From Escherichia coli (GTDB taxonomy: Bacteria; Pseudomonadota; Gammaproteobacteria; Enterobacterales; Enterobacteriaceae), in assembly GCA_002099625.1 (NCBI GenBank), contig GCA_002099625.1_4857.1: a DNA stretch of 64,000 bases; one strand, given 5' to 3'. The position numbers were made by a program, and so were the translations under genes. The notes beneath the pieces are model-generated. The model was not told the DNA's origin. It searched no databases and worked only from the letters and a program-made list of their open reading frames with translations. Positions 4,575-43,189 of the stretch are shown piece after piece. The first letter of the stretch is position 1, and each line of letters starts with the position of its first letter.

Positions 4575-4634
4575 GTTAATAGTCCTTATAAAAGTCAATG
4601 GTATTTTCAGATGATTAGTTACTGCTGTAAAAAA

Positions 4635-4901
4635 CTAGTTACGGTCGGAATTAAAGACGTGCCAGGTACTACGCCAGCGAAAGAATCGGGTTATGAAACC
4701 ACGTATGTGGTAGCCTGAGAACAACATCCAGATGGTAAGAAAGAGTTGCGCCCATGGAGACGTGAGTTCCATCAGATGCGCGACGATCGCACCGATCACC
4801 AACATTACCGTAGAGAATAACAAACTATACATCATCGGAATGTTGTGGCTATAGCGTTTCTCCATCCAGTAGAGAAAATTTATTAAACGTTTCACGAACA
4901 C
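4635..4901 (-). CDS. small membrane protein (two predicted TM helices)
   Basis: 88 aa with hydrophobic stretches LLFSTVMLVIGAIVAHL and LFLTIWMLFSGY; lies between a terminator and the next gene. Confidence 0.4.
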   Translation of the reverse strand: MFVKRLINFLYWMEKRYSHNIPMMYSLLFSTVMLVIGAIVAHLMELTSPWAQLFLTIWMLFSGYHIRGFITRFFRWRSTWHVFNSDRN

Positions 4902-7498: not shown

Positions 7499-7762
7499 TT
7501 AGGGTAAAGTTGCCTCCCAGTCGTGGTGGTGAGGCTCAGGCAGCGTACCAAGCGCTGCTTTAATACACGTACTCAGCGGAGTATCATCGAACGCAACACG
7601 CCCGATAGTACCCACGTTGATGTGTTTAGGATTTACGGGTAAGAACTCCTTCACCCGCTCGTACTCAGCCCAACAGACATCGGTGTTTAAAGCTGAAAAC
7701 CCAGGACGGTGAAACATAAATAGCACTCCTCGCGTAAAAATACCCCACTCATAGTGAGGCAT
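7499..7762 (-). CDS. hypothetical protein (87 aa)
   Basis: ORF in packed minus-strand operon. Confidence 0.5.
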   Translation of the reverse strand: MPHYEWGIFTRGVLFMFHRPGFSALNTDVCWAEYERVKEFLPVNPKHINVGTIGRVAFDDTPLSTCIKAALGTLPEPHHHDWEATLP

Positions 7763-8422: not shown

Positions 8423-8701
8423 TCAGCAACGTCGTTGAAAACGTCGCGATGCTGAGGTAACCTTCCGTCGCCACATTCGCTCATGGCGCTTCTGATTACC
8501 ACGCCAGTCTTCCCCGACTGTGCGTGAAACTGCAAAATCGTCCGGCCCGCAGACTTCCGCGATGTCTGCTAGAAGGTTCTTTGAAGACCCTATAGCCATC
8601 CCCACGCTCGAAAGAACGATACGCCGGGTTGGCTCGGCCGCCCCTGAACCCACGACCACGGGATCAGAGACTGTTTCACTGTCACATGATACTTCTCCCA
8701 C
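8423..8701 (-). CDS. hypothetical small protein (92 aa)
   Basis: GGAGGG RBS ~10 nt upstream of probable GTG start; basic C-terminus. Confidence 0.35.
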   Translation of the reverse strand: MGEVSCDSETVSDPVVVGSGAAEPTRRIVLSSVGMAIGSSKNLLADIAEVCGPDDFAVSRTVGEDWRGNQKRHERMWRRKVTSASRRFQRRC

Positions 8702-8929
8702 TTCGTAATTACCCTCCTGTTAAAACCAACCTTGCGTCAATGCAAGGATTGCGCCTAGGGCGTATGCGCCTGCTCCTAGTACCAGGCTACAGATGATACA
8801 CCCAACCCACTTCACTAAAATAACCATGATGCCAGAAATGCTCCGATTGCACAGATGATAATCGTAATGCCAAGGTCTGTCCAGGTGGTACCATCATACG
8901 CACCTGTTGCAATCATGGCTGCGTTGACA

Positions 8930-11912: not shown

Positions 11913-11964
11913 GTTTGCCTTCTAATGAGAAAGTATTAGTCGTTCATATCCAAAAGGCCATGCG

Positions 11965-11997
11965 TAAAAAAGAAGAAATGGAACCCCGAAGGGTTCC
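11965..11997 (-). terminator. rho-independent terminator (approx coords)
   Basis: Stem GGAACCC/GGGTTCC, loop CGAA, T-rich tail on minus strand. Confidence 0.5.
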
Positions 11998-22073: not shown

Positions 22074-22140
22074 TGGCTGTTTCCTCTAAGGATTCGGGTC
22101 ATAGTATGAACTCGACGCCCTCAGAGAAAAGGAGTGTAAA

Positions 22141-28800: not shown

Positions 28801-29997
28801 AACTCCCACACCAGTTTAAACTGCGGCTTTATTGCTGCGCCGTACGATAAACCAACCGGAAGAATTGCCACCACACAATCCAGCGTTACTAATACGCTGG
28901 TTGATGCTCCTCGTGTAATCAAGAGCGTGGATGTTCAGTCGCCTGACTGTTTAGACTATCTCCCGGTTTCAATCGCTAGCGAGTTCGCAGCCATTGGTTC
29001 GCGCTGGCTTATTCGTTATCGCTATATTGTTGATACGCAGATACTGCGAATATCGTCGATTAGTAAGATAGGTGGGCAGGCTTCGGCGACTGTTCGTGAG
29101 ATAGAATACGACATTCCGTTTGACGCGATTGATTATTTTAAAGGTGGCGCTTTATCGATTGGTGTTACTGGCCTCGAAACTGGTGAAGGCGTCACAATCA
29201 ACCACGGTTTGATGGACCCTTCCACAACAGAAGTGGATTTAAATCGTTTCCATTATCTACGCTCGCTATTTGAGTCGTATATTGAGCGTTCTCCGGACAG
29301 CCAGTCTTCTGGGCATGAGGAGATGTCGATATCAACCGTCGCGTTCGCGAACTTTGGAGATAACGTCGATAACCCGGTTACGGAATACATCACGATGTCT
29401 GCTGCAAGTGAGGGTTATCCGGAACTTGCACCGAACGGTAAACTCCCCGCACCGTTTTACAAAGGGCTGCAGAAACGTGGTGCTCCGCTACTTGAGTCGG
29501 CTCCTGCAGACTATACGTCTAACGGTGGTGAATGGAAGTACGGCTTTATGCGGGCTTATCGCCCAACTCAAAATGAGCGTTTTGTGTCGGTAAATGGGAC
29601 AATGCTCTCTAACTACCCTGGATATATCATCGTGGGTAGTGAGAAAATTCCGGGTAATGTTATACCTTTCAGTGCATCGACAACAGCTGTTCAGATATCT
29701 GGGACTCTTGCCCGCACGAAACCGATGCAGCCAATTCACATCGTGTTCGTGCCTCCGGAAGGTTCTGTGCCGCCGCTGCAAGCGAAGTTCACTATTAACG
29801 GTGTGGGTAGTAGTGGTAATCCGATGTTCGTGATTACTGAAACGACACCGGTGGAACTTCGCACGGGTGGCGAGACGATTCTCATTGAGAAGCGTAATCC
29901 ATTCCACATCCCCACCAGGACATGGGATTGGATTTTACAAACGTTGGATACTGAACGTAGAAACGAAGGCAACAACTCGGGTGAGTGGGCCTCTTAG
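25867..29997 (+). CDS. tail fibre protein 2 (1376 aa)
   Basis: TAAGGAG RBS; motifs HHHNFADLQIPTASQTVPGIARY and KPATTSEPGVVTLT (fibre-repeat-like). Confidence 0.8.
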   Translation: MKTYPYDPRGVNPECHFIEERIIDSDNPNDRVVMLDHRPFFEGLVVRLAGSSIPLTRGTDYELEYALTPLDDSVTTPVFCGVHLINPKLRGAVVFEGQMLGGTFYSGLIEMLDELVKALNNPTAADWLLLGNRPSLYPATPAAVAWSDMLNKKYVASAVHDVELDAGAANEQIREKLTELKDAVLGLGTEIATFNYPGHIASTNPHGTTAAQAGAHPVNLKTPDTFLAYGKTLRQLTNEVRALGLQQSDIDKYISKWVSKESKGVFNATISGTRALFRSPAGESEIVFSAEAFTLKSNGSVVLACGYADTTGTVRFMEWKAGINTLRIESTGSALGMDKLTLNGTTLLTTTALMGYQQDPGTSGGTVDPDDNKLYISGVNGITFTGKGSKADPVTGKVTAKPATTSEPGVVTLTDKPSDVVKGQAATPASLLPYEGDLSSYVRKTTLLNNQPMDTGSRTLTKKDLGLDLADNTADVDKPLSDALAEAVTDLSDKGHHHNFADLQIPTASQTVPGIARYSTNLNSLSDNRGVTPNVLNDLSKRLDVVAAALANAKEDTVTDFAAVRGKTWTVGSTRTTVAVTDLNYFYLLNGARKEGTVSGSIDLQTTPMFQWFSPDNRMERTWQNAVINTGAGIDFSGFEVAVPETNYGAQIGLTTTGMGDLSVVNLLAKTWVRCDSGKLRIWVRGGGAVSVYLDGEIIGAGITEAGYLEATVKEGWKQHCLAFRAECNDSAKAAAIRFTIYDGDFAVGASDKNTKVARLQEFVKTPNGLRHYLYVNMITDALYSRAEPIVDTEGINLERGYIGHIDVPDAGLVAGTTYEFETTFDFGMASELKRHFETRLAHGVSNTDWSLTDNPKMLPLNKVDPLPKQWLYAYPTNPSVSGDNLVRLDRGLFDYKFVSATSLRILLAAVVSTENASPYCWFTPSNPKENGMATFEGSVVIDTDYPEVPKTSDVEVSLNFMAPSADGKGKTRVLRWSNSHTSLNCGFIAAPYDKPTGRIATTQSSVTNTLVDAPRVIKSVDVQSPDCLDYLPVSIASEFAAIGSRWLIRYRYIVDTQILRISSISKIGGQASATVREIEYDIPFDAIDYFKGGALSIGVTGLETGEGVTINHGLMDPSTTEVDLNRFHYLRSLFESYIERSPDSQSSGHEEMSISTVAFANFGDNVDNPVTEYITMSAASEGYPELAPNGKLPAPFYKGLQKRGAPLLESAPADYTSNGGEWKYGFMRAYRPTQNERFVSVNGTMLSNYPGYIIVGSEKIPGNVIPFSASTTAVQISGTLARTKPMQPIHIVFVPPEGSVPPLQAKFTINGVGSSGNPMFVITETTPVELRTGGETILIEKRNPFHIPTRTWDWILQTLDTERRNEGNNSGEWAS

Positions 29998-29999
29998 GA

Positions 30000-30074
30000 C
30001 GGACTGCCTACGGGCGGGTAGTCCGTAGGTAAACCGCCCTTCCGTTATTGGGAGGGCGGTCTCCGTTTTATTAC
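30000..30074 (+). terminator. tandem hairpins followed by T-run (terminator/attenuator, approx coords)
   Basis: Hairpin 1 CGGACTGCCTACGGGCGGGTAGTCCG; hairpin 2 CCGCCCTTCC-GTTATT-GGGAGGGCGG, then TCTCCGTTTTATTA. Confidence 0.5.
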
Positions 30075-30092
30075 AGATTAGGAGTGTTTGCA

Positions 30093-33000: not shown

Positions 33001-35276
33001 CGCTGACTCTGGGAGCGAATTCCAGACTTATCTGGTTGTCACAACCGCGTTCCCGTTTGGCAATTGAAGTTGAGTTTGATCCGAACACCACTTACTCAGG
33101 TAAGGCGGGGTATGGCCCAACTAACAATCGTCGTGTAGTAGATTCTATCACGTATGAGAATCTGTCGCAGATGTGCCACATTGTTACACCGGCGTCGCCT
33201 GGTACAGAGTTAAACGGCTGGTATTGCACAGGACCAGAAACATTCCCTTACCACAACGTTTCCGGCACTTTCACGATTCATGCCGATCGATTGACGCTGT
33301 CACAAGCTGAATGGGATAAGATGAAGCAGATGATCATCGACGGAGCACCGGCAGGCGCTGCGAATGGTTATGCTTCGGAATTTATCCTTGCTGCAAATAA
33401 CGCAGGAAAGGCATTGTTTTCCGTTTGGTTCATCGGCATCGGAACGGCCACACCGCTCACATTAGCACAAGTAGCATGTACACGTACTGTGAACAATGTT
33501 AACTTGTTAGATATCTACTACTTTACACTGAAACCAACAATCAGCAACGGGCAGGTAACATTCCCCGCAGCGATATTGGCACTGTTTGACTTCTATAACA
33601 ACCTCGACTATGGCTTGAACTATGCTACGTTGGGAGAGATAACGGGAGGAAAAACACGCCGGCCGGGACAACCTACCATGGTGTCGGTAGATGGTACGCA
33701 GTTCGGGTTGTATCTTCCACACACGTTAACCTTGCGCCAGATTGGCGACTTGGGTGCGCTTAACTACGCTGCTGGTCTTACGCTGTCTAATGGTACCTGG
33801 ACGCGTTCTTCTGCACCACACGGCGTTGGACGTATGGCACCGTCACACACTCCAGTCAGCCCAGCTTATCTGGCTCATCGTGATCAGGTGATGCTACACA
33901 ACTCATCTCTCGACTACGTCTATTGTGGTGGTATCGCAATGTCGTCGAGTGATTTTGTTGCACGTCCGAGTTTCGGTGGGGCGACTGAGACTGTTGTTAT
34001 CGCCGGTGTGGAAACAGCCGAAGGTTGGCTGGTATATGTGACTGAGGAAGTTAACCTGCGTTTCGGCTCGAGCACTTATAAGCTGCCTACGTGGTATATT
34101 GACCTCAGCGCAGCGTTTCCAACAAACCATCAGAACCGGACATTCTACCTGCACGCTAAGGTAGAAAATGGTACACCGAAGTACGTAATGGACGTGGTTC
34201 AACATCCAGACACTGAAACGGAACTCTACATCGGGTATGTTAAAACGGGCTCGTCGCGAGTCGTCGAGACTAACGTCGACCATGCTAAGCGATTGGGGGC
34301 GGTAAAACAGCTGTTGGAACACGCGGCGGTTGAGAATAAGCATGATGTGGAAGTGGGAAGGGATGCAGCAACGGGCAGACTGGCACCATTGCGTAAAGAA
34401 GCGATGGGTCCTTTGTCAGTCGATGCTACGAAAGGCTATCTGGATAGTCAGTTGCTTTATACCGTATCTGACGCACAGCGTCGCGGTAAAGCGATGGTGT
34501 CCAAACGTTTCGAAGGCTTGAAAACTTTGCCGGCGTTTACTCAGGCAAACAAGTCGGGGGCGTTTTGGAAACATCCTACAACAATCGCGACGGTAACGGC
34601 CGACGAGAACAGTGAAGCGACATCGTTGGGTATGGAGTGGGTAGGTATTCCAACGCCCGCTTTCGCTCCGACTTCAACAAACTTGATGGTGGTGGTGCAA
34701 AGTAAATTCGTCGTCCCAGGTACACTGGGAGTAGAAACGACCTTTAATGTCCACGTTGCCCCATGGGAGGCGGTGGATGGCTTTTTCTACAACGTCGAGG
34801 CGGAAGGTACGGATGTTAACATTGACGAAAATCCAGAAGTGTTATTGCCGTCACCACATACCGTGCACCACAAACAGCACTCTCTGCCAGCAGGCGTGCC
34901 GTGCACCTTTACATTTGTCGCGGCGGTAAGTTCTTCAGCGCTCGAAACAGCTAACCAGCATATTTGCTCTTGGCTTTTCACGGACGCTGGGGGTCTACCA
35001 ATCACCACCGATCTTTCGGATAGTAAGATTCAAATCTTACCACAGTCGGGAGAGACCAACGGCACACCAGTTGTTCTGAACAGTCGTAGCTACACGTTTA
35101 CGAATGTGACAGGTGCAATCCCGGTTGTTACCACGGGCGCTCAGGGTTTATTCCCACCACCGATCGTGGCGTGGGATGGCGATGATCTTACGTTAACGAT
35201 TGCGCACGATTGGGTGAACGAGAGAGGACGTCAACAGCCTGATATTATCCAGGTCAATCTTATGTTCCGTACCTAA
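30093..35276 (+). CDS. tail fibre protein 3 (1727 aa from Met16 of track ORF 30048..35276)
   Basis: GGAGTG RBS 6 nt before internal ATG; motifs HTHTIADLDNVPYASTSVTGLAKLW and PAATTTVQGLFAIT. Confidence 0.8.
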   Translation: MPREDAAQFNGTLSTATYPNRYSTVIPVEAPFYRIGLTLTVTDKTTGTKRKLIEGLDYFLGHYFQELAEAENDAIYGSIMLLNATEVEYELLSVGRQYRIPASEIGKYLVKTDMKDPRNCDWSELMKYPPIISPIDPPKDLEEAILRDEIVKALEDIRLGILERAHELDEAFAEVTDLIYQNGKKVFDDEMYQHHLIKNAHGYTCGDIGALPVLGKAVDATKAFGRTLAELVTLMSTSGIQQKHVDMLLDNTLGDLLGRMRVLNNDAITFQTTSGHVISMKGEKFIITSTKPLVLKADQDNNEPGIATEFSAGLNTLWVHSGKAGDKWGAYDAGVLAPVYNSVYLVTPDMVKMYLTSVKILPANAYFKSSDTLKIYGSGKETNKVYMNAELPAATTTVQGLFAITNLSASAAASTAISQKAVTDLKNKLDGYVDDTYTVNGKGFVLDENGQMHLTLTASDFGIEKMNNTGPLEKPVTNALRTVLSGKALSTHTHTIADLDNVPYASTSVTGLAKLWDAIDTTTDKMVTARQGFLLEQKIGTLNDKIATLLPAWTVGGSSYGNNNFLPIPVQGNYEGYTKNQTWQKGLARYEAGKVYSLRNGSNGNPPGDWAIYYAYADVSPSNTLENMQQTSVRYHPAGMSAYPGVNLVAILITGTDAMICLGSDYAYYLVIFDGTIDHAKHHRVVKVYLGDYRNGNAAGVITTTPWVADPSTNDLIVCNDRVYLLRTVLTSGDYFVSMRSIALNELNLGGSNTFVADVLTGGMLTSGDNIYLRQGQKRSDTDVLVAPVTQIYADASAKWNSARNFVHGPECNHAIAVDGLNFRVGLTPTVWFASTTGQTINFKQWVSSFVVDCSSMTVTLEGADRFPIVADLTTVRYNGGAEIGIPSRKWGEGQANNRTFATSQDKYIVSQGHAGDRDLMPYVTITTLDDGVSWYEYLSCDYNFTARSFSAVMLNQGRGSIYELGMAYPLTLGANSRLIWLSQPRSRLAIEVEFDPNTTYSGKAGYGPTNNRRVVDSITYENLSQMCHIVTPASPGTELNGWYCTGPETFPYHNVSGTFTIHADRLTLSQAEWDKMKQMIIDGAPAGAANGYASEFILAANNAGKALFSVWFIGIGTATPLTLAQVACTRTVNNVNLLDIYYFTLKPTISNGQVTFPAAILALFDFYNNLDYGLNYATLGEITGGKTRRPGQPTMVSVDGTQFGLYLPHTLTLRQIGDLGALNYAAGLTLSNGTWTRSSAPHGVGRMAPSHTPVSPAYLAHRDQVMLHNSSLDYVYCGGIAMSSSDFVARPSFGGATETVVIAGVETAEGWLVYVTEEVNLRFGSSTYKLPTWYIDLSAAFPTNHQNRTFYLHAKVENGTPKYVMDVVQHPDTETELYIGYVKTGSSRVVETNVDHAKRLGAVKQLLEHAAVENKHDVEVGRDAATGRLAPLRKEAMGPLSVDATKGYLDSQLLYTVSDAQRRGKAMVSKRFEGLKTLPAFTQANKSGAFWKHPTTIATVTADENSEATSLGMEWVGIPTPAFAPTSTNLMVVVQSKFVVPGTLGVETTFNVHVAPWEAVDGFFYNVEAEGTDVNIDENPEVLLPSPHTVHHKQHSLPAGVPCTFTFVAAVSSSALETANQHICSWLFTDAGGLPITTDLSDSKIQILPQSGETNGTPVVLNSRSYTFTNVTGAIPVVTTGAQGLFPPPIVAWDGDDLTLTIAHDWVNERGRQQPDIIQVNLMFRT

Positions 35277-35323
35277 CAGATAGCGCTATGGGGCAAGGAA
35301 GCCCCAATCAAAGGAGTTTGGCA

Positions 35324-36526
35324 ATGGCCGAAATCATTTATCAGTACCCGCTTGACCTTACCGGGACATTAACGTCGAACGCCGTTACGCGGCGTATTAC
35401 GTTAGGTTCTGGTAAAGTTAACCGGGCTTTTGCATTTCCTGACGGAGCTTTCTACGCGGATACCTTCCGCTTGGCGGCTGCGAATAAACCAGGTGTCTAC
35501 CCGTACAAACGCGGCACAGACTACGAACTGATTTTTGCACATACTGCATATCAGAAAATGACCAAGAACCGCGAAGTGGTCATGGGTGTGGTGGTAACTA
35601 ACTCGGCCATTCCTACTGATATCGAAGTCTCTGCGCAAGTCGTTGGTGGTTTTCAGTCCGCGAACGTCGAAGGTATCCGACAAGCGATTGCGTCGTTGAA
35701 AATTGAAGACCGTGTGGTGGACTTCAAGGATCTTCGAAACGTACCTGATACGTTCCCATCCGCCCCGACGTATAAAGACCTTGGCGATATCTACGGTTTT
35801 GAGTATATCATTACCGTACTCGCTGGGATTAAAGATGCGATTAACTCCGGCTCTGCAGTACAGCTGGAAGAAATCAAAGGTATTCTGGACGGTCTGAAAA
35901 ACGACTTCCTCGATGCCTTAAATGCCCACGTCAACGCCGAAGGTAACGTACACAATCTCGACATTCATCAGGTTAATGGCCTGACGGAGACGGAGATTCG
36001 TGCTCTGATTCAAAGTGTACAGACTGCCATTGACGCCACTATCAAAGATATCGGCGACTTAAGAGCAGCAGACACGGCGTTGGGACAACGCATCGATGCA
36101 GTTGTGGCTTCGTTAGCCGCGTGGAACGACCAGCTTAATGTAGTTGCTCAAAATTACCAGAAAATGTCGTTAGCATTAGCTAACCTTAATTCTCTGGTGT
36201 TGCAATTACAGAAGAAGGTTAACGATCTTCAGTCTGCGCTGAATGAAACAAATCAGCGTGTCACGGATCTTGAGAATCAGGGCAAAGACTTCCAACAGCA
36301 AATTGATAACCTGCAAGGACAAATCAACAGTCTTAAAACTCAGGTTGTAAACAACACCAACGCAATTTCGCAGGCAAACCAGAATCTGGCGAACCATGCG
36401 GCTGCGGATAACCCACACCCGAATTACCTCCATAAACAGTATGGCGGTGTTGTGCAGGCTGCTGTTCACGTCAACAACAACCTCACCTCGCGCGACGATG
36501 TTCAAGCTGAAGCGGGTACTAAGTAA
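35324..36526 (+). CDS. tail-fibre-associated coiled-coil protein (400 aa from Met13)
   Basis: AAGGAG RBS 7 nt before internal ATG; N-terminus resembles those of the three large fibre genes (RGTDYELIF...); long Q/N-rich coiled coil. Confidence 0.7.
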   Translation: MAEIIYQYPLDLTGTLTSNAVTRRITLGSGKVNRAFAFPDGAFYADTFRLAAANKPGVYPYKRGTDYELIFAHTAYQKMTKNREVVMGVVVTNSAIPTDIEVSAQVVGGFQSANVEGIRQAIASLKIEDRVVDFKDLRNVPDTFPSAPTYKDLGDIYGFEYIITVLAGIKDAINSGSAVQLEEIKGILDGLKNDFLDALNAHVNAEGNVHNLDIHQVNGLTETEIRALIQSVQTAIDATIKDIGDLRAADTALGQRIDAVVASLAAWNDQLNVVAQNYQKMSLALANLNSLVLQLQKKVNDLQSALNETNQRVTDLENQGKDFQQQIDNLQGQINSLKTQVVNNTNAISQANQNLANHAAADNPHPNYLHKQYGGVVQAAVHVNNNLTSRDDVQAEAGTK

Positions 36527-36539
36527 CTTGTTTACGAGC

Positions 36540-36580
36540 CGGACTATGTTTATGGACATAGTCCGCTCGTTCTACTTTTT
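36540..36580 (+). terminator. rho-independent terminator/attenuator (approx coords)
   Basis: 9-bp stem CGGACTATG/CATAGTCCG, 8-nt loop, then CTACTTTTTAA; lies between fibre operon and first Cys-rich peptide gene. Confidence 0.5.
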
Positions 36581-36591
36581 AAGGAAGCGTA

Positions 36592-36984
36592 ATGGCGATA
36601 TCTATTAAAGACGTCAGAAACCGCGTCCAGATAGTCGAAGCTAACATGGCGACAGGCCCCCGTATCGACGCGCAAGTGGCCTCTAAAGCCCATAATGCGG
36701 CAGACCGATTTGGGGGTTGGACGAAAGCACAGCTAGATTGCGGCGGGACATGTTCTTGGACGTGCTCTAACGGTTGCTCGCATGGCTGTTCGAGCTGTTC
36801 AGGAAGCTGTTCTGCTTCTTGTATCGGTAGCTGTTCTTCGACGTGTGGCGGTAACTGTTCTGGTTGCTCTGGTTGTTCTGGTGGTTGCAGTAGTAGCTGT
36901 ACCGGTAACTGTTCAGGTGGTTGCGGCGGCTCTTGTTCCGCAAACTGCTCCGGGGCCTGCTCCGGCGGCTGTTCAGGTCGCTAA
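36592..36984 (+). CDS. Cys/Ser/Gly-rich precursor-like peptide P1 (130 aa): ~50-aa leader-like N-terminus plus 21-Cys repeat core
   Basis: AAGGAAG RBS; N-terminus MAISIKDVRNRVQIVEAN...; core DCGGTCSWTCSNGCSHGCSSCSGSC... with Cys every 3-4 residues; ends CSANCSGACSGGCSG. Confidence 0.65.
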   Translation: MAISIKDVRNRVQIVEANMATGPRIDAQVASKAHNAADRFGGWTKAQLDCGGTCSWTCSNGCSHGCSSCSGSCSASCIGSCSSTCGGNCSGCSGCSGGCSSSCTGNCSGGCGGSCSANCSGACSGGCSGR

Positions 36985-36994
36985 GGGGGATTAA

Positions 36995-37399
36995 ATGGCA
37001 ATTGGATTAAAAGAACTGAATAACCGATTAAACACGATCGATGCAAACGCTTTAAAGAACACCACGAATGTGCAAAACTACATTCGCAATAAAGCTACGA
37101 ATAACGCCGACTTGTTCGCAGGTCAAGGCCGTTCGCACTATGACTGTGGCGGCACATGCTCTTTTAGTTGCTCGAGTTGTTCTGGCGGGTGTACTGGGTC
37201 CGCTACGGGTGGTTGTGGGTCGACTTGTTCCGCAAACTGTGTATCGGGCTGTAGCAGCAGCTGTACGGGCTGTAGCTCTTCGTGCTCGGGTGGTTGTAGC
37301 GGCACGTGCACAGGCAGCTGTTCTGGGGGTTGTGGTAAATCCTGCTCCGCAAACTGCTCAGGTGCGTGCTCTGGTGGTTGTTCAGGTCCTAACTCCTAA
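36995..37399 (+). CDS. Cys/Ser/Gly-rich precursor-like peptide P2 (134 aa)
   Basis: RBS AAGGGGG; N-terminus MAIGLKELNNRLNTIDAN... paralogous to P1; core about 21 Cys; same C-terminal CSANCSGACSGGCSG block. Confidence 0.65.
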   Translation: MAIGLKELNNRLNTIDANALKNTTNVQNYIRNKATNNADLFAGQGRSHYDCGGTCSFSCSSCSGGCTGSATGGCGSTCSANCVSGCSSSCTGCSSSCSGGCSGTCTGSCSGGCGKSCSANCSGACSGGCSGPNS

Positions 37400-37414
37400 C
37401 TGACGGAGGCTTAT

Positions 37415-37621
37415 GTGATCAGTCTCAAGGCTATTCGAAACCGTCTCGTTACGGCAGAAGGTTACATTACAACCGCACAGGCAAACAACTATATCGCTAA
37501 CCAGGGCACCGTGTCAACCACGAACAACCTGGCTGGTTTACCGCTTTCCCACTATAACTGTAATGGTGGGTGTAGCTGGTCCTGCAGCGGAAGCTGTAGC
37601 CGTGGAGCGGGGAATCGATAA
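37415..37621 (+). CDS. short precursor-like peptide P3 (68 aa, 4 Cys), probable GTG start
   Basis: RBS ACGGAGG; N-terminus (M)ISLKAIRNRLVTAEG shares leader motif with P1/P2; core NCNGGCSWSCSGSCS. Confidence 0.5.
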   Translation: MISLKAIRNRLVTAEGYITTAQANNYIANQGTVSTTNNLAGLPLSHYNCNGGCSWSCSGSCSRGAGNR

Positions 37622-37643
37622 CAGAAAACGTTCGGAGTATTAA

Positions 37644-38531
37644 ATGAAAAACGATTTGCATCTTGCGTATAAAACCACATTCAACCACCCGCTGCATCTA
37701 TCTTCCCCAGACTCGGTGCGTGCACACCTCGCTGACAAAGTCAGACTGATTGCACAGATTCCTGGTGAGTGGCCAAAGGTTCGTGGTCGCTTCTTGACCG
37801 ACAAGAAGAACTACACCGTAGAAAATACGTTTAAGATCCGTGATATGGTTGCAGAGGCCATCGTTATCTTTAACGGCGATGGTAACTCTCGCGGCGTGTT
37901 AGTCGACGGTAAGTATTTCTTCAGTGAAGGGATTTTGAACAACAGCGTCGATTTAGAACTGATGTTTACACCGTTTGACGAACTTGAAGCAAAACCGATG
38001 GCGCGCCGTTGGTGGAGTCCGGACTATCTGGGCTCGTTCCCTTACTACTTTGTACTGGTACCTGCCGATACGGAAACGTATTTCGACACCGAACCATACA
38101 TCGATATCGAGGGGTATAAAGAACTCGGCATCACCCGTTTAGCGGACATGATGGCGTATAGCTATAAGTTCGTGTGGGATAAAAAGCGTTCTGTCTGGTA
38201 TGCGCTGACTGACGATTTTGAAATCACCAAGCGTATTCGTAAGCCGTGGATGCAACACCTGGTTCAAACTCGATATGGGGATTACCCGGCGACAGAAGCG
38301 GATTTGAGTAAGCTGGTAAGTTTCCTCTTAACGAAGGTGGATTTAACGAAAGAAGAAGCAGAAGCTGTTTCTGAGATTCGTGGTCGTTCGGTAACGTTGG
38401 CCGATTTGAAACGTCTGAACGAAAGACACGCCGACCTGAACAAAATTTTAGCTGCCTATCACGACCCGATGTTACTGGTGCCTGGCGCTAACGTAGACGA
38501 AGATCCTTTATTCGCCATTGATTATATTTAA
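37644..38531 (+). CDS. hypothetical protein (295 aa) in peptide/rSAM operon
   Basis: ORF with RBS, between peptide genes and rSAM genes; no motif recognised. Confidence 0.65.
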   Translation: MKNDLHLAYKTTFNHPLHLSSPDSVRAHLADKVRLIAQIPGEWPKVRGRFLTDKKNYTVENTFKIRDMVAEAIVIFNGDGNSRGVLVDGKYFFSEGILNNSVDLELMFTPFDELEAKPMARRWWSPDYLGSFPYYFVLVPADTETYFDTEPYIDIEGYKELGITRLADMMAYSYKFVWDKKRSVWYALTDDFEITKRIRKPWMQHLVQTRYGDYPATEADLSKLVSFLLTKVDLTKEEAEAVSEIRGRSVTLADLKRLNERHADLNKILAAYHDPMLLVPGANVDEDPLFAIDYI

Positions 38532-38553
38532 AAATATACTGGAGCAACCTGCA

Positions 38554-39468
38554 ATGACAGATCAAGTAGAATCCAGGATCTCGTCTGAACTGTACGACAA
38601 ACCGTCAATTCTGTCGGTTGTCGCAACTTCTAAGTGTAACTTAGACTGTAGCTTCTGTGGAGGGGCTTATTACATGGATAGAGAAGATACTTCTCGTGAG
38701 TTTCAACGTGAAGAGATTCTCTCGATTTTAGAGAAGAATCCGGATATCGGTGAGATTCATTGGACGGGCGGTGAGCCGCTGTTAGCGCAGCGTAAGATTG
38801 AAGACTTCGTGAACGAGTTGAAGGAGTCTCATCCGAACCTCCGTCATCACATGTACACCAACGGTTTAAAGATGCGTAAATCACATCTGCCGTTGCTGAA
38901 ACAGTTCGACCTTATCTTTGTGTCCATTGACGGCTACAAGAAGTCGGAACGTCCGTTTATGAACTTTGTAAACGGTGGTAATCACGAAGCGCTGGAAGTG
39001 CTGTACGAGCTGGACAATTATTACACCTGGGGTGTGATGACGCGTGACCAGTTAGGCGATAAACGCTGGTACGAAGATTTCATCGAGCTGCACCGAGCAA
39101 TCTATCATTACCGTCCAGGTGGTGTGTCGTTGTTGTTTGATGCGATGATGCCGAAACCGTTATCGCCAGACCACGTCATGAACTTCATGTACGGGTATTG
39201 GAAAATACTCGACAATATCGAACGCCTTAACATGCAGAACGACTCTGAATGTGGGCTTGCGATCAGTAAAATGTTCGATACCGAGTGCAACACGTGCAGT
39301 GAAGTGCTGTGGCTTAACGCCGACGGTACGCAGGAGCAAATTCAGAACGCCCCAGAGATATTGGAAGTCGGCTGTAATCGCCTGGCGCGTTCTATCGGCG
39401 TTGATGCGTATAACTACATCAACCGTGTAATTTCTGCTAAGCGTAAACGGGCGGCGAACAATGAGTAA
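38554..39468 (+). CDS. radical SAM enzyme 1 (304 aa from Met13)
   Basis: CNLDCSFCGG (C-x3-C-x2-C) near N-terminus; WTGGEPLL glycine-rich SAM motif; additional C-terminal Cys (C-x12-C-x2-C...C) suggesting an auxiliary cluster. Confidence 0.75.
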   Translation: MTDQVESRISSELYDKPSILSVVATSKCNLDCSFCGGAYYMDREDTSREFQREEILSILEKNPDIGEIHWTGGEPLLAQRKIEDFVNELKESHPNLRHHMYTNGLKMRKSHLPLLKQFDLIFVSIDGYKKSERPFMNFVNGGNHEALEVLYELDNYYTWGVMTRDQLGDKRWYEDFIELHRAIYHYRPGGVSLLFDAMMPKPLSPDHVMNFMYGYWKILDNIERLNMQNDSECGLAISKMFDTECNTCSEVLWLNADGTQEQIQNAPEILEVGCNRLARSIGVDAYNYINRVISAKRKRAANNE

Positions 39469-40789
39469 TAGCGAACAGCAAATCCAGTACACACCACGCA
39501 CGTATCAGGTTGTGACTAACCTGTCATGTAACCTGGACTGCGAATACTGCTACGAGCGTAAATATCCGCGTAACAACAAAGTAGCAGACGTGATTGATTT
39601 TATCCACGCTTGTTTCGAGCGTGATAAAGATATCCCGAACGTTGAAGTCATCATCGATATCATCGGTGGTGAGCCGTTCATGCAGCCTAAACTTCTTTTG
39701 GCGGCCTTTGAAACCGCAGAGAAGTTATGCGCAGAACACAATCGCCCGTATATGTTCAGTATCTCCACGAACGGTACGCTTCTGGACCGTCCGCTGAACA
39801 AAGAAATTATCGAGCGCTGGAAAGACAAACTGTCTATTGGGGTCTCCATCGATGGTTTACCTGAAGTCCATGACAAATATCGTATCTTTACCACGACGCG
39901 TGAAGGGTCGTACGAAGCTGCGGTACGCGGTTACAATTATCTGAAGAGTGTTGGCATCGCTGAACTGGGCGTAAAAGCGACGTTTACGATCGATACATTG
40001 CCGCACTATGCCGCCAGCATGAAATCGTTAATTGACATGTCCGGCGGTGGTACCATTTCTGGTAATGTAACGTACGAAGATATCCTGCCGCGCCATATGG
40101 CGTTGGATATCGCGAACCAGATGATGGACGTGATGGACTACTGGATTGAGAAGGGTCTGCACACCAACCCGCGTAACACGATTACACACATCATCCCGGA
40201 TGGCCTGAACTTTATGGCAACTTGGGACCCGGATTGGCGTGACAAACTCTTGCACGACGACTCTGTTCGTCTCGACCCAGAACGCCTGAAACCGTACTGC
40301 GGTACGTTGACGCACATGACCTGTCTCGGCTTTGATCGCAAGATTTACGGTTGTAACCGTTTCATGTCCACGGTAACTTCCCGCTCTGCTGTAGCGGAAC
40401 TGGTCGGTCGTGAGTTTGTGAGTCTGGACGGTGGTAAGCTGTTAGAAGAGATTCAAACGCAGTACACCAACTACCCAGAAACCTGTTTAGGGTGTCCGAT
40501 GAAGCACAGCTGCGGTAGCTGCGCAGCAGCATCGTACGAAAACGGTGAAGGTACACTGGAAGACCGTAAAGCGTATCACGCCGAGCGTCGTCAGTGTGGT
40601 TGGACTACTGCGAAGCTGATGGCGGCGGAATATTGGTATCAAAAAACTGGTACGACTCGCGCATCAGATTTGCACGATAAATCCATGTGCTATTGTTCAC
40701 GTTGTGTACGCCAACGTGCCGAAGCAGAAAAATTACAAAACGGAGCCCAGAATGAAGTCAATACTGATTCACAATTTTACGAAGCGTAA
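39461..40789 (+). CDS. radical SAM enzyme 2 with SPASM-like C-terminal domain (442 aa)
   Basis: CNLDCEYC (C-x3-C-x2-C); IIGGEPF; C-terminal Cys cluster CGTLTHMTC...C...CLGCPMKHSCGSC typical of SPASM/twitch; start overlaps rSAM1 stop by 8 nt. Confidence 0.8.
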   Translation: MSNSEQQIQYTPRTYQVVTNLSCNLDCEYCYERKYPRNNKVADVIDFIHACFERDKDIPNVEVIIDIIGGEPFMQPKLLLAAFETAEKLCAEHNRPYMFSISTNGTLLDRPLNKEIIERWKDKLSIGVSIDGLPEVHDKYRIFTTTREGSYEAAVRGYNYLKSVGIAELGVKATFTIDTLPHYAASMKSLIDMSGGGTISGNVTYEDILPRHMALDIANQMMDVMDYWIEKGLHTNPRNTITHIIPDGLNFMATWDPDWRDKLLHDDSVRLDPERLKPYCGTLTHMTCLGFDRKIYGCNRFMSTVTSRSAVAELVGREFVSLDGGKLLEEIQTQYTNYPETCLGCPMKHSCGSCAAASYENGEGTLEDRKAYHAERRQCGWTTAKLMAAEYWYQKTGTTRASDLHDKSMCYCSRCVRQRAEAEKLQNGAQNEVNTDSQFYEA

Positions 40790-41318
40790 ACTGCACTTGG
40801 TCGATCGCTTCCTGCGCAAAAGCAAGCTGTACAATGTGCACGCAATTGTGGCAGGGGAAGACTTCACTGATGAAATCCAAAGCCTGTTGATTAAATACGG
40901 GCTGAATGTGATGATCCCGGTCTACTGCGTTGAGAAAGGACACGAGTCTGTCGCGGAAATCGAAAAGCGCAACCCTGGCTTTGAGAAGCGACTGCTTGCA
41001 TACCCACGCCACAAAATCGAACTGCTACGTCACTCTATTGATGAAGCCAGTCCTGAAAGTTTAGTGGCATTGGGCTTGTCATTCCCGCGGATGCGTATTC
41101 GTAACTTACGCTCCAATAACCCGGTTGACGCTTATTACACAGAACGTCAAATCTTCGAAGAACACCTGCTCCCGCAGTTGGAAGAAGAAGAGCAACACAA
41201 CATTTCTCTGTTGTGGGCCGGTAACCTCGATCAGGACTTCCAGATGCTGGACTTCGGTTTGTTGTTAGAACTTGGCCTGATTGAGGAGGACGAATGTCTG
41301 TTACTGACAAAAGCTTAA
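40752..41318 (+). CDS. hypothetical protein (188 aa from Met17)
   Basis: ACGGAG RBS before internal ATG; overlaps rSAM2 3' end. Confidence 0.55.
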   Translation: MKSILIHNFTKRKLHLVDRFLRKSKLYNVHAIVAGEDFTDEIQSLLIKYGLNVMIPVYCVEKGHESVAEIEKRNPGFEKRLLAYPRHKIELLRHSIDEASPESLVALGLSFPRMRIRNLRSNNPVDAYYTERQIFEEHLLPQLEEEEQHNISLLWAGNLDQDFQMLDFGLLLELGLIEEDECLLLTKA

Positions 41319-41965
41319 CGAACGAAGAGATCCGCGCCCGTTATTTCCAGCGCGATTTGCCGATTGATCGTCACGGTAATTTCATGGAACGAATCGGTGC
41401 GCAGGATCAGGGTCGTACTGGATTTTGTGCATTACTCCATTACCATCTCATCGAAGGGATGTCTGATAAAGAAGCCCTGGCACGCATGAAGCTGTATGAG
41501 ATGTCGGAGATTGAAGCTAACTTCACATTGAAACGCACGAAAGAGTTTATTGCTAATGTGCTGGAGATTGACCTCGACGAAATTCGCGGGAATCTGAAAT
41601 CTACCGCACGTTACATTTACGAAGACGTGCAGAAGATGCTGTTGGAACTTGACCATCGCTACGAAGATGAGCGCCATGGTTATATCGAGTTTGAAGGTAG
41701 CCACTTTCAAGCCGATGAATCGTCGCGTACCATCCTCGGTCAATATATTCAGGCGGATACCGCACCAGAATACTGGCTCGATACGCTGAATACTAAGCAC
41801 AGTCCGTTTACAGTAGACCAATGTAAAGCGTTGTTGGCCGCTATTGTTGCACGTGACCAAGTGTTGCACTCAGCAATGGCAGATAACAAACGCCAAATCC
41901 GTGAGTTGGCTGAAAAGCGCGATTACACTGGATTAAAAACATTGTCCGAATCTCTCGGCATGTAA
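41294..41965 (+). CDS. hypothetical protein (223 aa), last gene of operon
   Basis: GAGGAGGA RBS; followed by strong terminator. Confidence 0.6.
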   Translation: MSVTDKSLTNEEIRARYFQRDLPIDRHGNFMERIGAQDQGRTGFCALLHYHLIEGMSDKEALARMKLYEMSEIEANFTLKRTKEFIANVLEIDLDEIRGNLKSTARYIYEDVQKMLLELDHRYEDERHGYIEFEGSHFQADESSRTILGQYIQADTAPEYWLDTLNTKHSPFTVDQCKALLAAIVARDQVLHSAMADNKRQIRELAEKRDYTGLKTLSESLGM

Positions 41966-41967
41966 GC

Positions 41968-42024
41968 AAAGAAAATAAAGGCCCTACCTCCCCGAAGGGA
42001 GGTAGGTACCTTTTATTTATTTCT
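41968..42024. terminator. bidirectional rho-independent terminator (approx coords)
   Basis: 10-bp stem CCTACCTCCC/GGGAGGTAGG, GAA loop, A-run before and TTTTATTTATTT after. Confidence 0.7.
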
Positions 42025-42574: not shown

Positions 42575-42697
42575 GGTTGTTTCCTTATAGTAGGTTTGTG
42601 GTGCATACTAAATCATTCTAAAAAATACATAGTGGGCTTAATATGACAGTAAAGTTGGCTGTTAAACAAGAAATTTTTTACCACTGAAAGGTACTCT

Positions 42698-43189
42698 ATG
42701 AAACGTCTATTTATCGTATTCGCGATTATAAACCTGTTGGCCGGTTGTGTTCAGTCGCCAAGCAACATAGGACAATTTAGCGCCACACCAGTAAAGAATC
42801 ACGACTTGGTGATTTATACATGCACAGGGACGCAGGAGAAGTTTATAGACTACCGTCCGGTTCTGGACAATCTACAGATGATGCCGCGGTCAGTAACAGT
42901 AATGGATGTGGGTGCAAACTGGGTAGCAACGTGGGACGGTGGCAAACTTGAGTCACCGATGATGTTTAAAGATGTGGTTGGCAAAATCGACGGGAATGTT
43001 AACACCACCACGGGCGAGCGTTATTACCGTATTAATAAAACAGCAAACGATAGCCCAACTTATTCTTTTTCGGATGTGAACCCACATACCGGGGAAGGTA
43101 AAGGGATGACATTCTTTCGCTGCAGCGCCGGCTTTATCGACGAAGTTCCTACGCCGATTATGATTGTTCCGTTAGAAGAAAATAAATAA
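42698..43189 (+). CDS. lipoprotein (163 aa)
   Basis: MKRLFIVFAIINLLAGC lipobox LAGC; isolated plus-strand gene with own terminator. Confidence 0.65.
   Translation: MKRLFIVFAIINLLAGCVQSPSNIGQFSATPVKNHDLVIYTCTGTQEKFIDYRPVLDNLQMMPRSVTVMDVGANWVATWDGGKLESPMMFKDVVGKIDGNVNTTTGERYYRINKTANDSPTYSFSDVNPHTGEGKGMTFFRCSAGFIDEVPTPIMIVPLEENK

What the first reader, a model, noticed from the sequence alone, without database searches (positions are those of the whole stretch)
36526..36600. Terminator hairpin sits immediately upstream of the first peptide gene with no obvious promoter
A 9-bp stem plus T-run lies ~15 nt after the stop of the 400-aa fibre-associated gene, and the RBS and ATG of P1 follow within ~15 nt. 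No room remains for a canonical promoter, so the peptide/rSAM operon is probably expressed by partial read-through of the late fibre transcript (attenuator-like) or from a phage-specific promoter embedded in the upstream gene. Either way its expression would be tied to late, structural timing.
Basis: inference. Interest (0 to 1): 0.4.

Follow-up and report, generated by a model that had tools for sequence, protein, structure and literature searches.

The report
Phage promoter nested inside terminator hairpin
The hairpin between a tail-fibre-associated gene and the first cysteine-rich peptide gene of this SPN3US-like giant phage looks like an ordinary terminator, but its loop carries the four-letter start signal (TATG) used by the RNA polymerase of the related giant phage phiKZ, so it most likely ends one transcript and starts the next.

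Summary
After the TAA stop of gp099 (36524-36526) lies a 16-bp hairpin with one bulge (36534-36570). It is followed by TCTACTTTTT, the ribosome site AAGGAAG and the P1 start codon at 36592.

[quoted passage not shown] The lack of room for a sigma-70 promoter is therefore not informative.

- **Terminator.** The hairpin plus T-rich tail has the same design as about 16 other terminators in the window. It is kept in at least 9 lineages of 4 genera, with compensatory stem changes.
- **Loop.** Unlike control terminators, whose loops drift, this loop always reads TATGG. An invariant (T/A)AC lies 15-16 nt upstream of it.
- **Known signals.** TATG, with transcription starting at the G, is the phiKZ late-promoter signal. 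AT-rich plus TAC near -22 is its middle-promoter signal.
- **Wider support.** Across four genera TATG ties with the Shine-Dalgarno core as the most position-conserved intergenic 4-mer. T[TA]AC-N15/16-TATG occurs 15 times in 9.7 kb of intergenic DNA, against 1.5 expected.

Best reading: a terminator for the fibre transcript with a phage promoter nested in it, predicted start G36554, 38-nt leader. No transcript data exist, so this is inference. Read-through is not excluded.

The parts
35324..36526 (+). Upstream gene, the homologue of SPN3US gp099 (virion structural / 'viral fiber' protein with a coiled-coil C-terminal half). Its transcript is what the hairpin would terminate.
   Evidence: 98.4% nucleotide identity to NC_027402 gp099. 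Pfam gives only coiled-coil hits. The stop codon TAA is at 36524-36526.
36531..36535 (+). TTTAC, the upstream half of the bipartite motif. TAC lies at -21 to -19 relative to G36554. A36534 and C36535 are also the two outermost pairs of the stem.
   Evidence: AC is invariant in 15 sequences. TTTAC-N15-TATG occurs 5 times in the window against 0.54 expected. T[TA]AC-N15/16-TATG occurs 15 times in intergenic DNA against 1.5 expected. phiKZ middle promoters have TACT centred at -22 after an A-rich run (PMC8244752).
36534..36550 (+). 5' arm of the hairpin, ACGAGC-C-GGACTATGTT. C36540 is bulged. A second TATG at 36545-36548 is not conserved across lineages.
   Evidence: Compensatory changes across lineages are shown.
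36551..36554 (+). TATG in the apical loop. This is the predicted start-site motif of the phage non-virion RNA polymerase, with G36554 as +1 (NC_027402 position 144258, complement strand).
   Evidence: TATGG is invariant in 15 sequences from at least 9 lineages while the stems vary. The loops of control terminators vary. TATG is position-conserved in 6 of 11 orthologous intergenic regions, against 0-1 for its letter permutations. In phiKZ the late promoter is T(-3)ATG(+1) (PMC4666361, PMC12809450).
36555..36570 (+). 3' arm of the hairpin, GACATAGTCC-GCTCGT. On the promoter reading it would be the first 16 nt of the P1 mRNA after the +1 G.
36571..36580 (+). T-rich tail TCTACTTTTT, with 7 T in 10 nt.
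   Evidence: About 16 other terminators in the window have the same hairpin, short spacer and T-run layout. All lineages keep a T-rich tail or a TTAT-type tail. The phiKZ terminator motif is a hairpin followed by YTTATK (PMC10914365).
36581..36587 (+). Shine-Dalgarno sequence AAGGAAG of P1.
   Evidence: AAGG is invariant and the spacing to the ATG is conserved.
36592..36984 (+). P1, a 130-aa Cys-rich (CxxxC-repeat) peptide gene and the first gene of the predicted transcription unit. It is not annotated in SPN3US RefSeq.
   Evidence: It is conserved by tblastn in other lineages at 67-79% identity. It matches TIGR04114 below the curated cut-off. No CDS is annotated at this position in NC_027402.
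36995..41965 (+). The rest of the co-oriented block that the predicted promoter would serve: P2, P3, gp101, two radical-SAM genes (gp102, gp103), gp104 and gp105.
   Evidence: The gene order is conserved in all lineages examined.
41983..42023 (.). Bidirectional terminator after gp105, CCTACCTCCC-CGAA-GGGAGGTAGG followed by a T-rich tail. It is the likely 3' end of the unit.

Best explanation
The 65-nt spacer holds two overlapping signals of the phage's own transcription system.

1. **Terminator.** The hairpin (36534-36570) plus its T-rich tail is an intrinsic terminator of the type this phage uses throughout. It ends, wholly or in part, transcripts that come through gp096-gp099.

2. **Promoter.** Nested in the same DNA is a phiKZ-type promoter for the non-virion RNA polymerase. 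It has an AT-rich run ending in TAC at -21 to -19 (36531-36535) and TATG at -3 to +1 in the loop (36551-36554). Transcription would start at G36554.

3. **Consequence.** An RNA that starts in the loop lacks the 5' arm and cannot form the terminator hairpin. It would run on through the T tract into P1, with a 38-nt leader carrying the ribosome site. It would continue through P2, P3, gp101 and the two radical-SAM genes to the terminator after gp105. The peptide/rSAM operon would thus be insulated from the fibre transcript and have its own start.

**What is shown:** the structure, its conservation with compensatory changes, the invariance of TATGG and AC, and the recurrence and conservation of both motifs in intergenic DNA of four genera.

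**What is inferred:** that the SPN3US-group polymerase uses TATG as phiKZ does, the exact start site, the efficiency of termination, and the timing.
For: **Identity of the phage**
- The window is 97.7% identical to Salmonella phage SPN3US, genus Seoulvirus.

**Terminator**
- About 16 other intergenic hairpins in the window have the same design: a stem, a 2-6 nt spacer and a T run, often ending in TTTTTAC.
- phiKZ and 201phi2-1 3' ends map to hairpin + TTAT motifs (PMC10914365, PMC11512511).
- The hairpin is present at the same place in 15 sequences, with 11-17 bp and -13 to -25 kcal/mol.
- The arms co-vary. Cognate arm pairs fold at a mean of -21.0 kcal/mol. Arms swapped between clades fold at -10.0.
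- The covariation score is 0.223 against 0.090 in shuffles (0 of 500 reach it). Five pairs show double-sided changes, and slid-partner controls score lower.

**Promoter**
- The loop TATGG and the upstream AC are invariant.
- Loops of three control terminators (after gp097, gp105, gp107) vary freely in the same lineages.
- TATG ties with the Shine-Dalgarno core GGAG as the most position-conserved 4-mer in 11 orthologous upstream regions of four genera (6 of 11). Its 11 letter permutations score 0-1.
- TTTAC-N15-TATG occurs 5 times in the window against 0.54 expected.
- T[TA]AC-N15/16-TATG occurs 15 times in 9.7 kb of intergenic DNA against 1.5 +/- 1.2 expected. Of 28 matches overall, 15 lie in the roughly 4.5% of sequence that is intergenic.
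- Orthologous bipartite sites precede the gp094 homologues in all four genera.

**Match to phiKZ**
- The phiKZ late promoter is T(-3)ATG(+1) with all four bases essential, read on the non-template strand (PMC4666361, PMC12809450).
- The phiKZ middle promoter has TACT centred at -22 after an A-rich run, and 5' leaders are mostly 31-40 nt (PMC8244752). Here the leader is 38 nt, and 34-41 nt in relatives.
Against: - I found no transcript data for SPN3US or any relative. The start site, the termination and the use of TATG by this polymerase are all inferred.
- Other conserved TATG sites (gp093, gp095/096, gp106, gp107) lack the TTAC half, and most read TATGA rather than TATGG. The motif classes are therefore not resolved.
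- Two of the five TTTAC-N15-TATG matches in the window use the annotated start codon as the ATG (gp074, gp107). These may simply reflect a compact T-tract, ribosome site and ATG layout.
- TATG is not generally enriched in terminator loops, so the nesting is a local feature, not a rule.
- The T run is 5 nt from the stem, and in Kwan and SNUABM_11 the tail is weak (CTTATTAAA). Termination may be inefficient there.
- In phiKZ, adding the middle-promoter motif to a late promoter lowered transcription in vitro threefold (PMC4666361).
Confidence: 0.5

Rival explanations
1. It is a plain, partly leaky intrinsic terminator. P1 and the rSAM genes are expressed only by read-through of the fibre transcript. 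The conserved loop sequence serves some other purpose or is fortuitous.
For: - The hairpin plus T-rich tail has the phage's usual terminator design.
- The T run is spaced 5 nt from the stem, and the tail is weak in some genera, which would make it leaky.
- gp098 lies behind a double terminator with no conserved TATG, so read-through or antitermination must occur in this block.
- Antitermination has been proposed for 201phi2-1 (PMC11512511).
Against: - It does not explain the invariance of TATGG and of AC 15-16 nt upstream across four genera, while the stems change and the loops of other terminators drift.
- It does not explain why the same bipartite motif recurs in intergenic DNA about 10 times above expectation.
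Confidence: 0.2
2. It is an RNA-level element. The hairpin, in the gp099-P1 transcript, would be a binding or processing site. Candidates are an RNase III-type cleavage site separating the two messages, or a loop bound by a phage or host regulator. The loop UAUGG would be the recognised sequence.
For: - It is a long hairpin with a single bulge or mismatch in mid-stem in every lineage, unlike the perfect stems of other terminators.
- The loop sequence is conserved.
- It sits 11 nt before the ribosome site.
Against: - No Rfam family matches.
- 16 bp is short for RNase III (my own knowledge).
- This reading does not explain the conserved AC outside or at the base of the stem at a fixed distance.
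- It does not explain the recurrence of TTAC-N15/16-TATG at sites that lack hairpins.
- The GGA (CsrA-type) reading of the loop fails in the Erwinia phages, where the loop is followed by GGC.
Confidence: 0.12
3. It is a structured-DNA promoter only. The inverted repeat exists to melt or extrude and so present TATG single-stranded to the polymerase, and it does not terminate anything.
For: - phiKZ nvRNAP binds TATG of the non-template strand in a pocket. What else defines a promoter is unknown, and ease of strand separation has been proposed (PMC12809450).
- The DNA hairpin is stable (-15 kcal/mol, z = -8.1).
- The repeat has an AT-rich centre.
Against: - Other conserved TATG sites have no comparable hairpin.
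- The T-rich tail is conserved after the stem, as in true terminators.
- A gene end lies 7 nt upstream, which is where this phage usually places terminators.
Confidence: 0.1

Closest known systems
phiKZ late promoters of the non-virion RNA polymerase (5'-TATG-3' with +1 at G; PMC4666361, PMC12809450)
   Same: The four-base motif is the same, and it is invariant here as expected if all four bases matter. It lies on the coding strand. The leader is 38 nt, within the phiKZ norm of 31-40 nt. The phage belongs to the same jumbo-phage group.
   Different: Here the motif lies in the apical loop of a terminator hairpin and is paired with a TAC element at -21 to -19. The +2 base is G. No start site has been mapped in any SPN3US-group phage.
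phiKZ middle promoters (A-rich run + TACT centred about -22; AAAATTACC in P78M; PMC8244752, PMC4666361)
   Same: An AT-rich run ending in TAC lies about 20 nt upstream of the predicted start. The spacing is fixed at N15, or N16 in two lineages.
   Different: The run is T-rich rather than A-rich. It is combined with TATG, which phiKZ middle promoters are not described as needing. In phiKZ the middle element reduced late-promoter activity in vitro.
Intrinsic terminators of phiKZ and 201phi2-1 (GC hairpin followed by YTTATK; PMC10914365, PMC11512511)
   Same: A stem-loop just after a stop codon is followed by a T-rich or TTAT-type tail. The design matches the other terminators in this window.
   Different: - The stem is less GC-rich (about 50%) and carries a bulge.
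- The loop is not a UUCG- or GNRA-type tetraloop but a conserved TATG.
- The T run starts 5 nt after the stem.
Promoter-proximal terminators in 201phi2-1 (T055/T056 just downstream of P033/P034 before the capsid gene; PMC11512511)
   Same: A promoter and a terminator lie within a few tens of nucleotides of each other before a structural gene block in a phiKZ-like phage.
   Different: There the terminator lies downstream of the start and can act on the new transcript, like an attenuator. Here the start is predicted inside the hairpin, so the new transcript escapes it.
Phage N4 virion RNA polymerase hairpin promoters (PMC4496689)
   Same: A phage polymerase promoter associated with an inverted repeat that can form a DNA hairpin.
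   Different: - N4 hairpins are short, with a 5-7 bp stem and a 3-nt loop.
- They are centred at -11 and read on the template strand.
- They need gyrase and SSB, and the enzyme is a single-subunit polymerase.
- Here the stem is 16 bp and the start is in the loop. Other sites with the same motif have no hairpin.

Membership tests
Intrinsic (factor-independent) terminator | A stable stem-loop in the RNA just downstream of a gene end, on the sense strand | tested here: met
   16 bp starting 7 nt after the stop codon. The 81-nt RNA folds at -25.7 kcal/mol (z = -3.6), and the hairpin alone scores -23.2 kcal/mol. It is conserved with compensatory changes.
Intrinsic (factor-independent) terminator | A U-rich tract directly after the stem | tested here: inconclusive
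   The tail is UCUACUUUUU, with 7 U in 10 nt, but the U5 run starts 5 nt after the stem. The simple scanner missed it. The same spaced layout is seen in the phage's other terminators. The tail is weak in Kwan and SNUABM_11.
Intrinsic (factor-independent) terminator | Transcript 3' ends map to the tract | not testable with these tools
   I found no RNA data for SPN3US-group phages.
phiKZ-type nvRNAP late promoter | 5'-TATG-3' on the non-template strand, with all four bases required | tested here: met
   TATG lies at 36551-36554 on the coding strand. TATGG is invariant in 15 sequences from at least 9 lineages. TATG is the most position-conserved non-SD 4-mer in orthologous intergenic regions.
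phiKZ-type nvRNAP late promoter | Transcription starts at the G of TATG | not testable with these tools
   This needs 5'-end mapping or in vitro transcription. The predicted leader of 38 nt fits the phiKZ range (PMC8244752).
phiKZ-type nvRNAP late promoter | The phage encodes a homologous non-virion multisubunit polymerase whose beta-lobe pocket reads TATG | not tested
   The polymerase genes lie outside the window. SPN3US is described as a phiKZ-family phage with RNAP subunit homologues (PMC5312081, PMC7598289). The pocket residues were not compared.
phiKZ-type middle promoter | An AT-rich run plus TAC(T) centred about 22 nt upstream of the start | tested here: met
   TTTAC lies at 36531-36535, with TAC at -21 to -19 relative to G36554. 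AC is invariant. The bipartite motif is enriched in intergenic DNA. The run is T-rich, not A-rich.
Sigma-70 promoter | -35 and -10 hexamers with 16-18 nt spacing upstream of P1 | tested here: not met
   No match lies between 36400 and 36600. Only 3 matches occur in 9 kb, against 9.4 expected.
Attenuator (leader-peptide or riboswitch type) | An alternative antiterminator pairing, a leader ORF or a ligand-binding domain upstream of the terminator | tested here: not met
   - Only 7 nt separate the stop codon from the hairpin.
- No Rfam match was found.
- The small ORF from the loop ATG is out of frame with P1, and its length is not conserved (my reading of the sequences).
N4-type hairpin promoter | A short hairpin (5-7 bp stem, 3-nt loop) centred at -11 and read on the template strand | tested here: not met
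   The stem is 16 bp and the predicted start lies in the loop. The motif is on the non-template strand (PMC4496689).

The most novel reading that the evidence does not exclude
The inverted repeat is not just a terminator that happens to house a promoter. It is a working part of a toggle. On this reading, melting or cruciform extrusion of the AT-rich centre presents TATG single-stranded to the beta-lobe pocket of the non-virion polymerase. That would supply the 'missing' specificity that the 4-bp phiKZ-type promoter lacks. The same sequence in RNA stops polymerases arriving from upstream. One palindrome would thus couple the end of the fibre transcript to the start of the peptide/rSAM transcript.
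Probability: 0.12. Interest if true: 0.7.

Novelty: new variant of a known kind. Interest (0 to 1): 0.4.

Why it matters
- **A testable promoter consensus.** I found no promoter map for SPN3US or its relatives in Seoulvirus, Erskinevirus, Machinavirus and Wellingtonvirus in the papers searched. This locus and the comparative tests behind it give concrete predictions: TATG at the start site, often preceded by T-rich-TAC 15-16 nt upstream. They also give a set of predicted start sites.
- **How a tiny promoter can be packed.** The locus shows how a 4-bp start-site promoter can fit inside a terminator loop, so that a 65-nt spacer both ends one unit and begins the next.
- **A defined transcription unit.** It delimits the unit for a CxxxC-repeat peptide/radical-SAM operon. 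SPN3US RefSeq leaves P1 and P3 of that operon unannotated and calls a wrong-frame CDS (gp100) across P2.
- **Relevance to an open question.** If the hairpin itself helps promoter recognition, it would bear on what defines phiKZ-type late promoters beyond TATG.

Tried and rejected
- **TATG in the loop as a general class of terminator.** Rejected. Among 205 terminator-like hairpins in 7 sources, TATG is no more common in loops than its letter permutations. The hits are the P1 orthologues plus one other hairpin, gp075|gp074 at 7743-7759.
- **CsrA-type GGA loop.** The window loop reads AUGGA, but the Erwinia phages have AUGGC. Rejected.
- **Upstream ORF from the loop ATG.** It is out of frame with P1 and has no ribosome site. 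Its length differs between genera, 18, 17 or 8 codons by my reading of the sequences. Rejected.
- **TATG upstream of gp099 (35287-35290) as a promoter.** It is conserved only in the Seoulvirus sequences (window, STsAS, SNUABM_29). It reads TGTG in Erskinevirus and is absent elsewhere. Not supported.
- **TTTTTAC as a promoter in its own right.** It mostly closes terminator T tracts. It is kept only as the upstream half of the bipartite motif.
- **Rfam.** No hit at gathering scores, and only chance-level hits at E up to 10.
- **Covariance model of the element.** It found only the one orthologous site per genome and no further copies.
- **RNAalifold consensus.** It fails on the re-aligned set, because bulges shift the register between clades. 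I used arm-swap energies and pair counts instead.
- **Literature.** I found no SPN3US transcriptome or promoter paper. The supplementary promoter tables of the phiKZ study are not held, and the original phiKZ transcription paper is not held.
- **Hairpins at other bipartite sites.** Only the gp094 site (8 bp) has a clear one. A hairpin is therefore not a general requirement.
Full report
**What the window is**

The region 35000-38000 is 97.7% identical to Salmonella phage SPN3US (NC_027402, 142812-145812, opposite strand). It matches 34 other Seoulvirus genomes at 95-99%. More distant relatives with the same gene order exist in Erskinevirus (phiEaH2, Asesino), Machinavirus (Huxley, Parshik, ChrisDB, SNUABM_4, pSal-SNUABM-04), Wellingtonvirus (Kwan, SNUABM_11) and several IMG/VR contigs.

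**The observation**

- The stop codon of the 400-aa gene (SPN3US gp099, a virion structural protein with a coiled-coil C-terminal half) is at 36524-36526.
- A perfect 10-nt inverted repeat lies at 36540-36549 and 36556-36565.
- Folding extends it to 16 bp with one bulged C, spanning 36534-36570, with loop UAUG at 36551-36554.
- The 81-nt RNA folds at -25.7 kcal/mol (z = -3.6). The DNA form folds at -15 kcal/mol (z = -8.1). No shuffle did as well in either case.
- Then follow TCTACTTTTT (36571-36580), AAGGAAG (36581-36587) and the P1 ATG (36592).

The stem is longer than stated, and the T run is set 5 nt away from it.

**Is it a terminator?**

I mapped the SPN3US genes onto the window and folded every intergenic spacer. 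About 16 spacers carry a hairpin followed, after 2-6 nt, by a T run. Examples are TTCTTATTTTTTAAC after gp091, TCCTCTTATTTTTTACA after gp088 and TACCTTTTATTT after gp105.

This is the phage's standard gene-end signal. It resembles the hairpin + YTTATK motif at mapped 3' ends in phiKZ and 201phi2-1 (PMC10914365, PMC11512511). The hairpin after gp099 has the same layout.

It sits at the same position in all 15 orthologous spacers examined, with 11-17 bp, -13 to -25 kcal/mol and a T-rich or TTAT-type tail.

The stem sequences differ between clades but stay complementary:
- ACGAGC..GCTCGT in the window and its closest relatives;
- GAGGAC..GTCCTC;
- ATGAGGTGC..GCGTCCTCAT;
- CACGGGCC..GGCCCGTG;
- AGGAGGAAC..GTTCCTCCT.

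Joining each 5' arm to the 3' arm of another clade raises the mean fold energy from -21.0 to -10.0 kcal/mol. On a model-based alignment the covariation score is 0.223 against 0.090 in shuffles (0 of 500). Five pairs show double-sided changes, and slid-partner controls score lower.

The helix is therefore under selection. That it stops transcription is inferred from its form and position.

**What is unusual: the loop**

In every lineage the apex reads (T/A)TATGG.

As a control I compared three other terminators (after gp097, gp105 and gp107) in the IMG/VR lineages and Huxley. Their stems and T tracts are kept, but their loops drift: CGAA, GTAAA, TTCG and TATTAC at one site, and GTAAG, TTA, TTCG and TATTA at another. 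The commonest loop words among 205 terminator-like hairpins are of the TTCG type.

A second invariant block, AC at the end of an AT-rich run, lies at the 5' base of the stem. It is 15 nt before TATG (16 nt in Wellingtonvirus).

**What TATG and TAC mean in this group**

In phiKZ:
- Late promoters are defined only by 5'-T(-3)ATG(+1)-3'.
- All four bases are needed by the purified non-virion polymerase (PMC4666361).
- Middle promoters carry an A-rich run and TACT centred about -22. An example is AAAATTACC (PMC8244752, PMC4666361).
- Leaders are mostly 31-40 nt (PMC8244752).

Taking G36554 as +1, TAC falls at -21 to -19 and the P1 leader is 38 nt (34-41 nt in relatives). The two invariant blocks thus coincide with the two known phiKZ promoter elements at about the right spacing.

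**Does this phage group use these motifs?**

I found no transcript map, so I tested conservation. I fetched syntenic 50-kb stretches of phiEaH2, Kwan and Huxley and extracted the regions upstream of orthologous genes.

*Four-letter words.* Among all 256 four-letter words, TATG ties with the Shine-Dalgarno core GGAG as the most position-conserved word in 11 intergenic regions. It is conserved in 6 of 11: gp093, gp095, gp096, P1, gp106 and gp107. Its 11 letter permutations score 0-1. gp095 and gp096 share one spacer, where TCATAGTATGA gives back-to-back TATG on the two strands.

*The bipartite pattern.*
- TTTAC-N15-TATG occurs 5 times in the window against 0.54 expected (0 of 100 shuffles reach 5).
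- T[TA]AC-N15/16-TATG occurs 15 times in 94 intergenic regions (9.7 kb) of the four genomes. The expectation is 1.5 +/- 1.2, with a maximum of 6 in 500 shuffles.
- Those 15 are more than half of the 28 matches in 214 kb.
- Orthologous bipartite sites precede the gp094 homologues in all four genera. P1 has one in all lineages, though phiEaH2 and Asesino read AAAC.

*Caveats.*
- In two window matches the ATG is the annotated start codon (gp074, gp107).
- The strongly conserved TATG sites before baseplate and fibre genes lack the TAC half.
- There may therefore be two promoter classes, and the timing of the P1 class is open.

**Putting it together**

The most economical reading is a composite element.

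- Polymerases arriving from gp096-gp099 transcribe both arms, form the hairpin and stop in the T tract.
- Polymerases that initiate at the loop TATG make an RNA beginning GGACAUAGUCCGCUCGU.... This RNA has no 5' arm, so it cannot form the terminator. It continues into P1, P2, P3, gp101, the two radical-SAM genes, gp104 and gp105. It would end at the bidirectional terminator at 41983-42023.
- The downstream genes are a CxxxC-repeat peptide system. P1 and P2 match TIGR04114 below its cut-off. gp103 matches the CXXX-repeat maturase TIGR04115 and PapB-type models, also below their cut-offs.

**Why the nesting is local, not a rule**

TATG is not enriched in terminator loops in general. At other sites the two signals lie in tandem, as hairpin, then T-tract-TAC, then N15, then TATG (for example before gp080 at 11945-11968). 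A covariance model of the element finds only the one orthologous copy per genome.

**Rivals**

1. *Leaky terminator with expression by read-through alone.* This remains possible as a contribution. gp098 follows a double terminator with no conserved TATG. It leaves the two invariant blocks unexplained.
2. *RNA processing or protein-binding site.* This would fit the conserved loop and the constant mid-stem bulge. It has no support from Rfam. It does not explain the fixed-distance TAC or the recurrence of the motif at sites without hairpins.
3. *Structured-DNA promoter with no terminator role.* This is the most novel reading. It is weakened by the conserved T-rich tail and by hairpin-less sites elsewhere.

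**Verdict**

There is a terminator-type hairpin and a phage-specific promoter, but the promoter is inside the hairpin, not in the upstream gene. 'Late' timing is not established.
- Everything about function is inference from structure, conservation and analogy with phiKZ.
- This is a new variant of known kinds of signal, of moderate interest. Its main value is a concrete, testable promoter prediction for a well-used model jumbo phage.

Noticed in passing
window 36592-36984, 36995-37399, 37415-37621 (and 37068-37403): SPN3US RefSeq (NC_027402) does not annotate P1 or P3. Its gp100 is an ORF in the wrong frame lying across P2. P1-P3 share a paralogous ~50-aa leader (28-44% identity), followed by CxxxC repeats in P1 and P2 and a short Cys-rich tail in P3. 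P1 and P2 match TIGR04114 below its cut-off. gp103 matches the CXXX-repeat rSAM maturase TIGR04115 and PapB-type models, also below their cut-offs.
   Followed up: partly
window 22099-22109: The spacer between the divergent genes gp095 and gp096 holds the palindrome TCATAGTATGA. This gives TATG on both strands back to back. It is invariant in four genera and is probably a pair of divergent late promoters.
   Followed up: partly
window 35290-35305: A small hairpin, GGGGC-AAGGAA-GCCCC, lies just before the gp099 ribosome site. It is conserved with compensatory stem changes, and its loop keeps A-N-GGA-N. Together with the Shine-Dalgarno GGA this resembles paired CsrA-type sites. It has no T tract.
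   Followed up: no
window 29995-30075: Two strong tandem hairpins plus TTTTATTAC follow gp097 and are conserved in all lineages. No conserved TATG precedes gp098. gp098 and gp099 therefore seem to depend on read-through or antitermination.
   Followed up: partly
window 7740-7762 (- strand): This is a second hairpin with TATG(A) at its apex, ATGCCTCACT-ATG-AGTGGGGTAT, followed by TTTTTAC, a ribosome site and the gp074 start. It may be a second nested terminator/promoter. Its conservation in other genera was not checked.
   Followed up: no
window 42642-42700: Upstream of gp107, a TATGAC conserved in four genera is followed in the window by a small hairpin (ACAG..CTGT) and TTTTTTAC before the ribosome site. 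This is a promoter-proximal, terminator-like arrangement, as reported before the 201phi2-1 capsid gene.
   Followed up: partly
window 8475-8814: This 340-nt 'intergenic' gap in the SPN3US annotation has a very stable predicted fold (-128 kcal/mol, z = -2.7). It also holds unannotated ORFs on the - strand, including a 35-aa membrane-like ORF at 8720-8827 and a 92-aa ORF. No tRNA or Rfam hit was found.
   Followed up: partly
window 36540; loci L002-L021 at the orthologous hairpin: Every lineage's P1-upstream hairpin has one bulge or mismatch in mid-stem. The phage's other terminators have perfect stems. This is unexplained.
   Followed up: no
L022/L030 about 4621-4720 (IMGVR_UViG_3300045988_153628): In a distant relative (gp099 homologue at 27% identity), the gene is followed by a perfect 12-bp hairpin and then ATTTATGG in place of a T tract. 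TATGG again lies next to a terminator, but outside the loop.
   Followed up: no
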